The notes under the pieces were generated by a model, which saw nothing but the letters and a program-made list of their open reading frames with translations, was not told where the DNA came from and searched no databases. A DNA stretch of 11,317 nt from a virus: the UHGV virus genome UHGV-0229837; one strand, given 5' to 3'. Shown here in pieces: positions 2,438-3,767 of the stretch (its first letter is position 1; each line of letters opens with the position of its first letter). The position numbers were made by a program, and so were the translations under genes.

Positions 2438-2716
2438 ATGGCGCACGATACCAAATTACACAATTCTGATGATTCTGCCGTCTTTGCCAGCAGGTGCGGA
2501 CGGCGTTTTCATGCATTCAAATCGGACTGGTTCCAGCATCCACCATGCACTGAAGAGCAGGCTGAATGGATAATTCAGTGTTACCGCAGGCGCGGATACG
2601 AGGTTAAAAAAGCCCTTAGCCTCGACTACCGTCACTGGATAATCTCAGTCAGATTGCCTTACTCCGAACGCCCACCGCGTCCATCCCGCACATTCCAGCA
2701 ACGCATCTGGAGGTAA
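2438..2716 (+). CDS. Hypothetical protein (92 aa from ATG 2438; the track gives a 129-aa version from TTG 2327)
   Basis: ORF ending TAA at 2714-2716, immediately before the next gene's SD and GTG start; sits where rem lies in K-12 Qin, but identity is unverified. Confidence 0.5.
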   Translation: MAHDTKLHNSDDSAVFASRCGRRFHAFKSDWFQHPPCTEEQAEWIIQCYRRRGYEVKKALSLDYRHWIISVRLPYSERPPRPSRTFQQRIWR

Positions 2717-2717
2717 C

Positions 2718-3767
2718 GTGCGGGTATTACTTCGACCTGTTCTGGTACCGGAACTCGGGCTGGTGATCGTTAAGCCGGGCCGTGAATCCATGCCGGTATT
2801 CCACAATACCCGGTTACTGGTGGAGCCGGAACCGAAAAGCATGCGTAATCTGCCGTCCGGGGTCGTTCCTGCCGCTCGCCAGCCGCTGGTGGAAGACAAA
2901 ACATTGCTGCCGTTTTTCAGTAACGCACGGGTGATTCGTGCTGCTGGTGGTGCTGGTGCATTGTCTGACTGGCTGTTGCGCCATATTAAATCCTGCCAGT
3001 GGCCACACGGCGATTATCATCACAGCGAAACCGTCATTCACCGTTATGGTACCGGCGCAATGGTGTTGTGCTGGCACTGCGACAACCAGCTGCGTGACCA
3101 GACATCCGAATCACTCGAGCAAGTTGCTCATCAAAACCTGTCAGCATGGATGATTGACGTCATCGGTCACGCAATAAGCGGTACGCAGGAGCGTGAATTA
3201 TCTCTGGCTGAATTATCCTGGTGGGCGGTCCGCAATCAGGTGGCGGACGCGCTACCGGAAGCGGTATTACGTCGTTCGCTGGGGTTGCGTGCGGAAAAAA
3301 TCCGCTCAATGTACCGTGAAAGCGACATCGTACCGGGAGAGCAGACCGCCACCAGCATACTGAAACAGCGCACAAAAAATCTTGCGCCGCTGCCTCACGC
3401 CCACCAGCAACAGAACCCACCACAGGAAAAGACGGTGGTCAGCATTGCCGTTGATCCTGAGTCTCCGGAATCTTTCATGAAACGACCTAAACGTCGCCGC
3501 TGGGTTAACGAGAAATACACACGCTGGGTGAAGACACAGCCGTGTGCGTGTTGTGGTAAGCCAGCCGACGATCCCCATCACCTGATTGGTCATGGTCAGG
3601 GCGGAATGGGGACAAAATCTCACGATATTTTCACGCTACCGCTGTGTCGGGAGCATCACAACGAGCTTCATGCGGATCCTCTGGCGTTCGAAGAAAAGCA
3701 TGGTTCTCAGGTTGATTTAATTTTTCGTTTTCTTGATCACGCCTTTGCAACTGGCGTGCTTGGGTAA
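2718..3767 (+). CDS. YdfU-like prophage protein (349 aa; DUF968-type from memory) with a C-terminal HNH/NinG-like zinc-finger nuclease motif
   Basis: GTG start at 2718 preceded by GGAGG (2709-2713). C-terminus CACCGKPADDPHHLIGHGQGG...LPLCREHHNELH fits the CxxC...HH...C..H pattern of HNH/NinG(Rap)-like nucleases. Length and position (upstream of rusA and Q) match the Qin YdfU context. Confidence 0.75.
   Translation: MRVLLRPVLVPELGLVIVKPGRESMPVFHNTRLLVEPEPKSMRNLPSGVVPAARQPLVEDKTLLPFFSNARVIRAAGGAGALSDWLLRHIKSCQWPHGDYHHSETVIHRYGTGAMVLCWHCDNQLRDQTSESLEQVAHQNLSAWMIDVIGHAISGTQERELSLAELSWWAVRNQVADALPEAVLRRSLGLRAEKIRSMYRESDIVPGEQTATSILKQRTKNLAPLPHAHQQQNPPQEKTVVSIAVDPESPESFMKRPKRRRWVNEKYTRWVKTQPCACCGKPADDPHHLIGHGQGGMGTKSHDIFTLPLCREHHNELHADPLAFEEKHGSQVDLIFRFLDHAFATGVLG

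What the first reader, a model, noticed from the sequence alone, without database searches (positions are those of the whole stretch)
2438..3767. Large YdfU-like protein with a C-terminal HNH/NinG-like zinc-finger and an uncharacterised N-terminal region, plus a 92-aa upstream partner
The 349-aa protein has a C-terminal Cys/His motif (CACCGK...DPHH...CREHHNELH) resembling HNH or lambda NinG/Rap structure-specific nucleases, but about 250 residues of N-terminal sequence are unassigned. It is tightly coupled to the upstream 92-aa ORF (stop at 2716, GGAGG, GTG at 2718) and to rusA downstream, suggesting a recombination or DNA-processing module whose biochemical role is poorly defined.
Basis: partly seen in the sequence, partly recalled or inferred. 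Interest (0 to 1): 0.5.

Follow-up and report, generated by a model that had tools for sequence, protein, structure and literature searches.

The report
Prophage YdfU nuclease and small partner
This is the well-known but never-tested E. coli prophage gene ydfU: a DNA-cutting (HNH-type) enzyme domain with an unexplained zinc-type front half, sitting with a small upstream gene and the RusA junction-cutter in the phage's recombination gene block. It is ordinary in identity, and its exact job is still open.

Summary
ORFs of 92 aa (2438-2716) and 349 aa (2718-3767) lie head to tail, with GGAGG-TAA-C-GTG at the junction. rusA (3780-4154) and the Q antiterminator follow.

The window is an E. coli Qin-like lambdoid prophage. 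The 349-aa protein is an 85%-identical ortholog of K-12 YdfU (Pfam DUF968, E=4e-77), a family already placed in the His-Me/HNH superfamily in 2017.

Only residues 1-159 lie outside any Pfam family. They fold confidently (pLDDT 92) and carry a conserved C93/[CH]101/C118/[HC]121 cluster, with no Pfam or significant PDB relative.

The small ORF is a real gene (dN/dS 0.16) that is unannotated in K-12. Its relatives sit directly upstream of YdfU, NinG or YbcO, but it is absent from the two distant YdfU loci checked.

Diverse YdfU homologs are followed by RusA, VRR-NUC or DUF1064 nucleases and then, in most cases, Q.

Most likely this is a recombination or branched-DNA nuclease filling the Rap/YbcO slot. 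The family is known and the biochemistry untested. Interest is low to moderate.

The parts
2359..2386 (+). Sigma-70-like promoter match (TTTACA-16-TATACT) upstream of the 92-aa ORF, downstream of the hokD terminator-like hairpin (2048-2065).
   Evidence: It matches 10 of 12 positions, but the number of such matches in the region is not above the shuffle expectation, so it is only a candidate.
2438..2716 (+). 92-aa small basic protein (pI 9.8), PHROG 1212, function unknown. It has a conserved 66-aa core (residues 27-92) and a weakly constrained 26-aa N-terminal extension.
   Evidence: RefSeq 'hypothetical protein' WP_001429486; phrog_1212 E=3e-36; intact but unannotated in K-12; homologs at 35-47% identity in Gifsy-1/2, N15, PY54, mEp237, phiES15; dN/dS 0.156; core 0.06; extension 0.56.
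2709..2720 (+). Coupling junction: GGAGG (encoded by the last Trp-Arg codons), TAA stop, one base, then the GTG start of ydfU.
   Evidence: The same junction is present in K-12. Gaps of 2 nt or overlaps occur between small-ORF relatives and NinG or YbcO in other phages.
2718..3767 (+). ydfU ortholog, 349 aa, a DUF968-family protein.
2718..3182 (+). N-terminal domain (residues 1-155), specific to the YdfU/PdcB family. It has short beta strands, helices 56-89, a beta-hairpin at 105-118, a helix at 119-125 and a long helix at 131-154.
2994..3080 (+). Conserved Cys/His cluster of the N-domain: C93, H101 (Cys or His in the family), C118, C121 (His or Cys in the family), plus Q94, W119 and D122. It is a predicted structural zinc site at the hairpin-to-helix turn.
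   Evidence: C93 and C118 invariant; 66/68, 65/68, 67/68 and 67/68 members keep the four positions. Zinc binding itself is inferred, not shown.
3183..3467 (+). Middle region (residues 156-250): conserved helices including the 'LS..EL.WWA' motif, which form the first half of Pfam DUF968, then a low-confidence linker (231-240).
   Evidence: DUF968 profile positions 1-86; pLDDT below 50 at 231-240.
3471..3542 (+). Basic lead-in (residues 252-275, SFMKRPKRRRWVNEKYTRWVKTQP; 9 K/R of 24, pI 11.8). K258 is invariant and P257 nearly so. It is a likely DNA-contact segment preceding the nuclease core.
   Evidence: The comparison with the basic DNA-binding N-terminal segment of P1 Ref (PMC4330346) is by analogy only.
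3543..3671 (+). Zinc-finger His-Me (HNH) nuclease core. Putative Zn ligands are C276, C279, C310 and H313. Catalytic and metal residues are H287, H288, D303, H314 and H318.
3780..4154 (+). rusA, a Holliday-junction resolvase of 124 aa.
   Evidence: (PF05866 E=2e-17).
4151..4972 (+). Late-gene antiterminator Q (273 aa). Its start overlaps the rusA stop.
   Evidence: (PF03589 E=6e-54).

Best explanation
The locus is the nuclease-plus-resolvase segment of the 'nin' (delayed-early) region of a Qin-like lambdoid prophage of E. coli.

The 349-aa protein is YdfU. It has three parts: (i) a family-specific N-terminal domain of about 155 aa with a conserved four-residue Cys/His cluster, probably a structural zinc site; (ii) a helical middle region and a flexible linker; and (iii) a basic lead-in followed by a zinc-finger His-Me (HNH) nuclease domain of the P1 Ref/YbcO type, with all catalytic residues present.

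It occupies the slot that lambda NinG/Rap or phage-82 YbcO fill in other lambdoid phages, directly before a junction resolvase and the Q antiterminator.

Most likely mechanism (inferred, not shown): the HNH domain nicks or cuts DNA at recombination or replication intermediates (D-loops, branched DNA, possibly RecA-bound DNA as for Ref). The basic segment binds DNA, and the N-domain supplies substrate or partner recognition. RusA, made from the same transcript, then resolves the resulting junctions, promoting phage recombination and clearing branches before packaging.

The 92-aa protein is a separate, translationally coupled nin-region gene. Among the enterobacterial phages and prophages sampled it almost always precedes whichever His-Me nuclease fills the slot. 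Its role is unknown; a small regulator or partner of these nucleases is possible.
For: Identity:
- 99.9% DNA identity to many E. coli chromosomes, where it is annotated DUF968 / RusA / antitermination.
- 85% amino-acid identity to K-12 YdfU.
- DUF968 at 258 bits against a cutoff of 27.8.

HNH fold and active site:
- PHROG 96 'HNH endonuclease', E=9e-175.
- AF2 pLDDT 86.7 with a beta-beta-alpha at 285-319.
- hhalign of the C-domain profile to Ref gives E=2.3e-5 and to YbcO E=1.5e-5.
- Catalytic His residues are conserved in 71-74 of 80 family representatives.
- The family was classified as His-Me group 7 in PMC5714182.

Slot equivalence:
- The same small-ORF family is followed within 0-2 nt by YdfU (79 of 80 loci), by NinG (54 unique proteins) or by YbcO (5).

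Link to junction resolution:
- In seven divergent homologs (27-43% identity) the next or next-but-one gene is RusA (3), VRR-NUC (1) or a DUF1064/endonuclease-I-like nuclease (3). These are three unrelated nuclease families. Q follows in most cases.

Selection:
- Purifying selection acts on all three parts of the protein, with dN/dS of 0.08-0.18.
Against: - No biochemical or genetic data exist for YdfU or its P1 homolog PdcB, which is listed as function unknown and non-essential.
- Adjacency to a resolvase may reflect only the conserved gene order of lambdoid nin regions. K-12 Qin has ydfU directly before Q with no rusA, and P1 pdcB is followed by lpa.
- Six of 39 two-domain family members, including P1 PdcB, have lost the catalytic histidines but keep the N-domain. 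Nuclease activity is therefore not the only selected function of the family.
- The N-domain has no recognisable relative, so its proposed targeting role is a guess.
- The Foldseek PDB search gave only non-significant hits, with E above 0.6.
Confidence: 0.55

Rival explanations
1. The N-terminal domain is itself a degenerate, catalytically dead duplicate of the C-terminal zinc-finger His-Me domain, making this a tandem HNH-like architecture that serves as a DNA- or partner-binding module.
For: - Both halves have the same order of elements: helix, Cys, loop with Cys/His, beta, beta, then 'LC-x-x-[HC]-x-N' at the start of a helix (N-domain LCWHCDN 117-123; C-domain LCREHHN 309-315).
- hhalign of the N- and C-domain profiles finds exactly this register.
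- The N-domain profile aligns locally to Ref 'LPLCRWHHQH' with E=0.005.
Against: - None of these results is significant. The N-versus-C hhalign gives E=0.067 and probability below 1%, and BLASTP gives E=2.5.
- The His at the position of the catalytic residue (102) is not conserved: only 25 of 68 members have His there.
- The Cys spacing differs: C-x7-[CH] in the N-domain against C-x2-C in the C-domain.
Confidence: 0.3
2. YdfU is a non-recombinational weapon or accessory nuclease, for example one that degrades host or competitor DNA (superinfection exclusion or anti-defence). It would be carried as an accessory gene, with no functional tie to RusA.
For: - His-Me domains are common in toxins and defence systems (PMC5714182).
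- P1 Ref, the closest structural match, has no measurable effect on the P1 lysogenic or lytic cycle when deleted (PMC4330346).
- YdfU is dispensable in P1 as PdcB.
- It sits next to the hok/sok toxin-antitoxin module in this window.
Against: - No match to any PADLOC defence model.
- Its position is fixed inside the early operon between the replication genes and Q in many unrelated phages, always beside a junction-type nuclease. This is not typical of accessory genes.
- No partner immunity gene is conserved across the family.
Confidence: 0.12
3. The protein acts mainly without catalysis, as a DNA-binding or protein-binding factor (a regulator or scaffold), with the HNH fold serving as a zinc-finger binding module, as seems to be the case for P1 PdcB.
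For: - Six of 39 two-domain homologs, including PdcB, lack H287/H288/H314/H318 but retain the Zn cysteines and the N-domain.
- One family member is annotated as a transcriptional regulator in the literature.
- The gene always lies just upstream of the late-gene activator.
Against: - In this window's protein and in 33 of 39 two-domain relatives the complete catalytic set is conserved.
- The C-domain is under the strongest purifying selection, with dN/dS 0.08.
Confidence: 0.1
4. The 92-aa protein is a dedicated functional partner (inhibitor, chaperone or specificity subunit) of nin-region His-Me nucleases in general, rather than merely a neighbouring gene.
For: - It is immediately upstream and translationally coupled (2-nt gap or overlap) to three different His-Me families: YdfU in 79 of 80 loci, and NinG or YbcO in 59 of 60 unique downstream proteins in the second set.
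- Its core is strongly conserved, with dN/dS 0.06.
Against: - In N15 it precedes an RNase T-like exonuclease, and in PY54 an unrelated 175-aa ORF.
- In the two distant YdfU loci checked (P0350, P0296) the upstream ORF shows no similarity to it, and P1 PdcA is also unrelated.
- The conserved 3' end encodes the Shine-Dalgarno of the next gene, so linkage could be a recombination or expression 'adaptor' effect.
- No structure or interaction prediction could be run.
Confidence: 0.25
5. YdfU is a terminase-associated HNH endonuclease needed for cos cleavage and packaging, as in HK97 gp74-type systems.
For: [quoted passage not shown]
Against: - The gene lies in the early region upstream of Q, with the lysis cassette between it and the terminase genes where these are present.
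- The P1 homolog is non-essential, while pacA and pacB are essential.
Confidence: 0.03

Closest known systems
E. coli K-12 YdfU (Qin prophage, b1560) / Pfam DUF968 (PF06147); His-Me finger group 7 of Jablonska et al. 2017
   Same: - Same length (349 aa), 85% identity and the same GTG start context.
- A full DUF968 match.
- The same neighbours, hokD upstream and Q downstream.
   Different: - This copy has rusA inserted between ydfU and Q, whereas K-12 has none.
- K-12's annotation omits the upstream 92-aa ORF, although it is intact there.
Bacteriophage P1 Ref (RecA-dependent HNH nuclease, PDB 3PLW, Pfam RecA_dep_nuc)
   Same: - hhalign gives E=2.3e-5, with shared 'PC..C', 'HH.[IL].G' and 'LPLCR.HH' motifs.
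- Both have a basic segment just before the core, and both are dispensable phage recombination-type genes.
   Different: - No Pfam RecA_dep_nuc hit.
- The hhalign match ends at Ref residue 146, before Ref's published active-site His153.
- Ref has a disordered 76-aa N-terminus, whereas YdfU has a folded 155-aa domain plus a helical region.
- RecA dependence of YdfU is untested.
YbcO (DLP12/phage 82; Pfam PF07102, formerly DUF1364; PDB 3G27)
   Same: - The same His-Me group in the literature.
- hhalign E=1.5e-5 over 74 columns, including the C-terminal helices.
- The same genomic slot, directly upstream of rusA and downstream of the same small-ORF family.
   Different: YbcO is only about 96 aa, the nuclease domain alone. 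It lacks the 250-residue N-terminal part and does not hit the DUF968 model.
Lambda NinG/Rap (PF05766), a branched-DNA-specific endonuclease
   Same: - It belongs to the His-Me superfamily.
- It occupies the same slot between the small ORF and Q in Gifsy-2 and many IMG/VR prophages.
- A recombination role is plausible for both.
   Different: - No detectable specific sequence relationship: there is no Pfam hit, and hhalign gives E=0.02 over 18 columns.
- It is a separate His-Me group (group 24) in the literature.
- Its domain architecture is different.
Bacteriophage P1 PdcB
   Same: It is a full-length homolog of 347 aa: the N-domain matches at 30% identity and DUF968 at E=4e-50. It also lies immediately upstream of the late-gene activator, lpa.
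   Different: - PdcB lacks the catalytic histidines (ITPYIV in place of DPHHLI; CQSCQRDIE in place of CREHHNELH) while keeping the cysteines.
- It is preceded by PdcA, which is unrelated to the 92-aa ORF.
Gram-positive 'Orf-HNH' proteins (Pfam HNHc_6; Curtis et al. 2014)
   Same: A C-terminal HNH of similar type. YdfU gives a sub-threshold HNHc_6 hit (22.4 bits against a cutoff of 26.6).

Membership tests
Pfam DUF968 (PF06147) / YdfU family | Score above the Pfam gathering threshold across the whole model | tested here: met
   258.4 bits against a cutoff of 27.8. Residues 160-346 cover profile positions 1-171 of 171.
Pfam DUF968 (PF06147) / YdfU family | Orthology to K-12 YdfU (full-length collinear similarity and the same genomic neighbourhood) | tested here: met
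   85% identity over residues 17-349 by tblastn. The first 16 residues are also conserved. hokD lies upstream and Q downstream.
His-Me finger (HNH, beta-beta-alpha-Me) nuclease superfamily | A beta-hairpin followed by a helix forming the metal site (fold) | tested here: met
   [not shown]
His-Me finger (HNH, beta-beta-alpha-Me) nuclease superfamily | A catalytic His at the end of the first strand, and metal-binding His/Asn residues on the helix | tested here: met
   H287-H288, H314 and H318 are present here and conserved in 74, 74, 72 and 71 of 80 representatives. They align with Ref 'LHHIAG' and 'CRWHHQH'.
His-Me finger (HNH, beta-beta-alpha-Me) nuclease superfamily | Metal-dependent nuclease activity | not testable with these tools
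   No experimental data on YdfU or PdcB were found in the literature searches.
Lambda NinG/Rap (PF05766) | Sequence membership (a Pfam NinG hit or significant profile similarity) | tested here: not met
   No NinG hit at E<=0.01. hhalign of the C-domain profile against Gifsy-2 NinG gives E=0.021 and probability 2%.
Lambda NinG/Rap (PF05766) | Branched-DNA-specific cleavage | not testable with these tools
   This needs biochemistry. Only positional equivalence was shown.
P1 Ref / RecA_dep_nuc (PF16786) | Sequence membership in the Pfam family | tested here: not met
   [not shown]
P1 Ref / RecA_dep_nuc (PF16786) | Cleavage only of RecA-bound DNA or D-loops | not testable with these tools
   This property is defined in PMC4330346.
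YbcO (PF07102) | Sequence membership in the Pfam family | tested here: not met
   No PF07102 hit for YdfU, whereas mEp237 gp052 and phiES15 gp018 hit it at E about 1e-41. It is related at profile level only (hhalign E=1.5e-5).
HNHc_6 (PF16784) / Orf-HNH fusion proteins | Score above the gathering threshold, plus an Orf/NinB-like N-terminal domain | tested here: not met
   [not shown]
PHROG 1212 (the 92-aa ORF) | Profile match over the whole family model | tested here: met
   E=3.2e-36. Residues 27-92 cover profile positions 1-66 of 66. The family has no known function.
RusA (PF05866) (the downstream gene) | Score above the gathering threshold | tested here: met
   64.3 bits against a cutoff of 22.8.
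Known anti-phage defence systems (PADLOC) | A match to any defence-protein model | tested here: not met
   No hits for either protein at E<=0.01.

The most novel reading that the evidence does not exclude
YdfU/PdcB-type proteins may be a distinct two-module class. In this reading, a previously undescribed zinc-binding N-terminal domain, possibly an ancient dead copy of the HNH finger, directs a Ref/YbcO-like nuclease to recombination intermediates or RecA filaments, in obligatory cooperation with whichever junction resolvase follows it (RusA, VRR-NUC or DUF1064). The conserved small upstream protein (PHROG 1212) would be a general regulator or partner of all three nin-region His-Me nucleases (YdfU, YbcO, NinG/Rap).
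Probability: 0.2. Interest if true: 0.55.

Novelty: already known. Interest (0 to 1): 0.3.

Why it matters
YdfU is a 'y-gene' of E. coli K-12, and DNA similar to this ydfU-rusA segment occurs in most complete E. coli genomes (4650 of 5426). Neither YdfU nor its P1 homolog PdcB has an assigned function.

If it is a Ref- or Rap-like nuclease directed at recombination intermediates, it would complete the picture of a swappable 'nuclease + resolvase' cassette in front of the late-gene switch of lambdoid phages. That cassette influences prophage mosaicism and recombination, including in Stx phages that carry ydfU. Because Ref has been used for targeted DNA cleavage, a Ref-type nuclease with a folded targeting domain could also be of practical interest.

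What this analysis adds is modest:
- a domain map of the protein;
- a candidate zinc site in the N-domain;
- the Ref/YbcO (not NinG) affinity of the C-domain;
- the resolvase-adjacency pattern in divergent homologs;
- a conserved gene that is missing from the K-12 annotation.

Tried and rejected
1. Sequence search of the PDB with the protein and with family profiles found nothing meaningful. Even YbcO 3G27 was not detected by HMM.
4. Pfam scans of the N-domain, as a single sequence at E<=10 and as 32 diverse members at E<=1, gave only noise.
5. The word-indexed homolog search with the N-domain returned only close E. coli fragments and was uninformative.
6. P1 PdcA as a homolog of the 92-aa ORF was rejected (hhalign E=0.83). 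The ORFs upstream of the distant YdfU homologs P0350 and P0296 were also rejected as homologs.
7. The 92-aa ORF and its Gifsy-2 and N15 relatives gave no Pfam hit of any kind at E<=1, so no lambda NinF relationship was detected.
8. The defence-system hypothesis found no PADLOC hit.
9. The search for related loci with the small-ORF alignment failed because no conserved stretch was available. Single sequences were used instead.
10. The original Ref structure paper (PMC3048710) is not held in the library. The 2015 Ref paper was used instead.
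Full report
**What is in the sequence**

The window carries, on the + strand, the following genes:
- hokD (1824-1979), with its sok RNA at 1656-1826;
- a 92-aa ORF (ATG 2438, TAA 2714-2716);
- a 349-aa ORF (GTG 2718, TAA 3765-3767);
- rusA (3780-4154);
- a Q-type antiterminator (4151-4972).

The motifs CACCGK (276), DDPHH (284) and PLCREHHNELH (308) are present. DNA 2300-4200 is 99.9% identical to many E. coli chromosomes. RefSeq annotates these as 'hypothetical protein', 'DUF968 domain-containing protein', 'RusA family...' and 'antitermination protein', inside a lambdoid prophage. 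Some similarity occurs in 4650 of 5426 complete E. coli genomes.

Compared with the K-12 Qin prophage, the 349-aa protein is 85% identical to YdfU. dN/dS is 0.135 for this gene and 0.156 for the 92-aa ORF.

**Family assignment**

Pfam DUF968 matches residues 160-346 (E=4e-77). HNHc_6 is just below threshold. PHROG 96 'HNH endonuclease' matches the full length. There are no NCBIfam or PADLOC hits.

[quoted passage not shown] That paper names YdfU and notes RusA and Q as neighbours (PMC5714182). An earlier paper described DUF968 HNH domains fused to Orf-like domains in Gram-positive phages (PMC4118853). No experimental work on YdfU was found.

**Structure**

I built a 32-sequence alignment of full-length homologs, 27-82% identical to the query, from the exhaustive representative search. 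The AF2 model from it has mean pLDDT 86.7. It shows three parts:
- an N-domain (1-155);
- helices at 163-219, followed by a low-confidence linker around residues 225-250 (pLDDT below 50 at 231-240);
- a C-domain with helix 265-273, strands 285-288 and 306-309, and helix 311-319.

Profile comparison of the C-domain gives the following:
- Ref: E=2.3e-5. PCIAC...LHHIAGR...LPLCRWHHQH aligns with PCACC...PHHLIGHG...LPLCREHHNELH.
- YbcO: E=1.5e-5.
- NinG: E=0.02.

Across 80 representatives, H287 and H288 are kept in 74, H314 in 72, H318 in 71 and D303 in 79. The putative Zn ligands C276, C279, C310 and [H/C]313 are kept in 61-74.

The C-terminal domain is therefore a zinc-finger His-Me nuclease domain with an intact active site. 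It is closest to Ref and YbcO and is not a NinG family member. A basic stretch (252-275, pI 11.8, K258 invariant) leads into it. This is reminiscent of the basic DNA-binding N-terminal segment of Ref (PMC4330346), but the resemblance is by analogy only.

**The 'unassigned' N-terminal part**

Only residues 1-159 lie outside Pfam. The domain is widespread. tblastn finds it in 174 phage records, including mEp460, SfII, Stx2c phages, Klebsiella, Yersinia, Providencia and Vibrio phages, and P1/P7. Modelled alone, it is confident (pLDDT 91.6).

It contains a beta-hairpin (105-118) followed by a helix (119-125). Two cysteines, C93 and C118, are invariant in the 32-sequence alignment. In the wider set, C93, [H/C]101, C118 and [H/C]121 are kept in 65-67 of 68 members. 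W119, D122 and Q94 are also well conserved. I infer a structural zinc site at the hairpin-helix junction, in a treble-clef-like arrangement. This is an inference from conservation and predicted topology, not a demonstrated fact.

P1 PdcB is a full-length homolog that is non-essential and of unknown function. It has lost the catalytic histidines but kept the cysteines and the N-domain. So have 5 other members among 39 two-domain proteins. The N-domain therefore has a selected role that does not depend on catalysis.

**The 92-aa ORF**

It belongs to PHROG 1212, of unknown function, and has no Pfam hit. Its 66-aa core is strongly constrained (dN/dS 0.06). The first 26 residues are not (dN/dS 0.56). 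The only in-frame start codons are ATG 2438 and a TTG further upstream at 2327.

An intact copy, 78% identical, lies between rem and ydfU in K-12 MG1655, but it is not annotated there.

Its homologs, at 35-47% identity, occur in these settings:
- Gifsy-1 (its neighbours were not examined).
- Gifsy-2, directly before NinG.
- mEp237 and phiES15, directly before YbcO and then RusA.
- N15, before an RNase T-like exonuclease.
- PY54, before an unknown ORF.

In IMG/VR, 79 of 80 close relatives are followed by ydfU. Of 60 unique proteins encoded just downstream of mEp237-type relatives, 54 are NinG-like and 5 are YbcO-like.

The ORFs upstream of two distant YdfU homologs (P0350 and P0296) show no similarity to it, and P1 PdcA is unrelated. 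It is thus a conserved, translationally coupled upstream neighbour of the 'His-Me nuclease slot' of enterobacterial lambdoid phages, not a YdfU-specific partner. Whether it works with these nucleases is open (about 0.25).

**Context and likely function**

Seven divergent YdfU homologs, from genomes and metagenomes, are followed within one or two genes by one of three nuclease families:
- RusA (P0254, P0311, P0285);
- a VRR-NUC nuclease (P0296);
- DUF1064 proteins with weak phage endonuclease I and TnsA-like similarity (P0288, P0350, P0317).

Q follows in most cases. Together with this window, that gives three unrelated nuclease families in the same position after YdfU. T7 endonuclease I is a junction-resolving enzyme, and VRR-NUC proteins act on branched DNA; both statements rest on general knowledge rather than on tests done here.

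Combined with the slot equivalence to NinG/Rap and YbcO, the best-supported reading is that YdfU is the structure- or intermediate-directed endonuclease of a nuclease-plus-resolvase recombination cassette. It would be expressed from the delayed-early transcript just before the late switch.

What is shown: identity, fold, conserved active site and synteny. What is inferred: nuclease activity, substrate, cooperation with RusA and the role of the N-domain.

There are counter-indications. K-12 has no resolvase next to ydfU. P1 PdcB is catalytically degenerate and is followed by lpa. Synteny may simply reflect the conserved order of the nin region.

**Verdict**

The finding is real and its HNH reading is correct. 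However, the protein is the known, already classified but uncharacterised YdfU/DUF968 family. The NinG resemblance is positional rather than familial, and the extent of 'unassigned' sequence was overstated.

The new, modest points are:
- the domain map;
- the conserved Cys/His cluster of the N-domain;
- the Ref/YbcO affinity of the C-domain;
- the catalytically dead PdcB clade;
- the small-ORF/His-Me-slot association;
- the recurrent resolvase adjacency;
- the gene missing from the K-12 annotation.

Novelty is 'already known'. Interest is about 0.3.

Noticed in passing
L002 4310-4588 (- strand) = NC_000913.3 about 1644309-1644587, between rem and ydfU; window 2438-2716: The 92-aa ORF is intact in E. 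coli K-12 MG1655 (ATG start, GGAG Shine-Dalgarno, 78% amino-acid identity, dN/dS 0.156). No feature is annotated there in the RefSeq record, although PGAP annotates it in other E. coli genomes. It is probably a gene missing from the K-12 annotation.
   Followed up: partly
L008 2405-3448 (phage P1 pdcB): P1 PdcB is a full-length YdfU homolog (DUF968 E=4e-50). Its HNH domain keeps the zinc cysteines but has lost all catalytic histidines. Five other two-domain family members are similarly degenerate. This suggests a non-catalytic role centred on the N-domain.
   Followed up: partly
L091-L170 (IMG/VR prophages), L003, L005, L006: The small PHROG-1212 gene sits 0-2 nt upstream of NinG, YbcO or YdfU, three different His-Me nuclease families. 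This behaves like a swappable 'nuclease slot' in lambdoid nin regions. One locus (L107) has instead a Cys-rich 143-aa protein of unknown type.
   Followed up: partly
L171, L172, L173, L174, L176-L179: Divergent YdfU homologs are followed by RusA, VRR-NUC or DUF1064 (endonuclease I / TnsA-like) nucleases. This is a non-orthologous replacement of the nuclease gene in the same position before Q.
   Followed up: partly
window 1656-1979: A complete hok/sok type I toxin-antitoxin module lies just upstream: sok RNA (Rfam, 101 bits) and hokD (Pfam HOK_GEF E=3e-22). A terminator-like hairpin follows at 2048-2065.
   Followed up: no
window 5116-5191 and 5296-5372: Two tRNA genes lie just downstream of Q and a terminator-like hairpin (5053-5072). 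One has anticodon CAT (ARAGORN calls it tRNA-Met, whereas RefSeq annotates the equivalent gene as tRNA-Ile). The other is tRNA-Arg(TCT).
   Followed up: no
window 6069-6258 (+) and 6284-6619 (-): There is an Rfam STnc100 sRNA match (132 bits). Next to it is an ORF at the position where a near-identical genome annotates the anti-adapter protein IraM.
   Followed up: no
window 9528-9912: A cspA-type thermoregulator 5' leader (Rfam, 114 bits) with a 70-aa cold-shock-like protein gene (9673-9885) lies right after the lysis genes. Tail-fibre-like fragments and an IS009 RNA match (11079-11277) follow. There are no terminase or head genes, so this copy looks like a degraded, cryptic Qin-like prophage.
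   Followed up: no
P0037, P0039, P0042 (607 aa); P0061, P0129: Some database entries fuse YdfU to Q (DUF968 + Antiterm), or fuse RusA with DUF968, in one predicted protein. These are probably frameshifts or annotation read-through, not real fusions. This was not checked.
   Followed up: no
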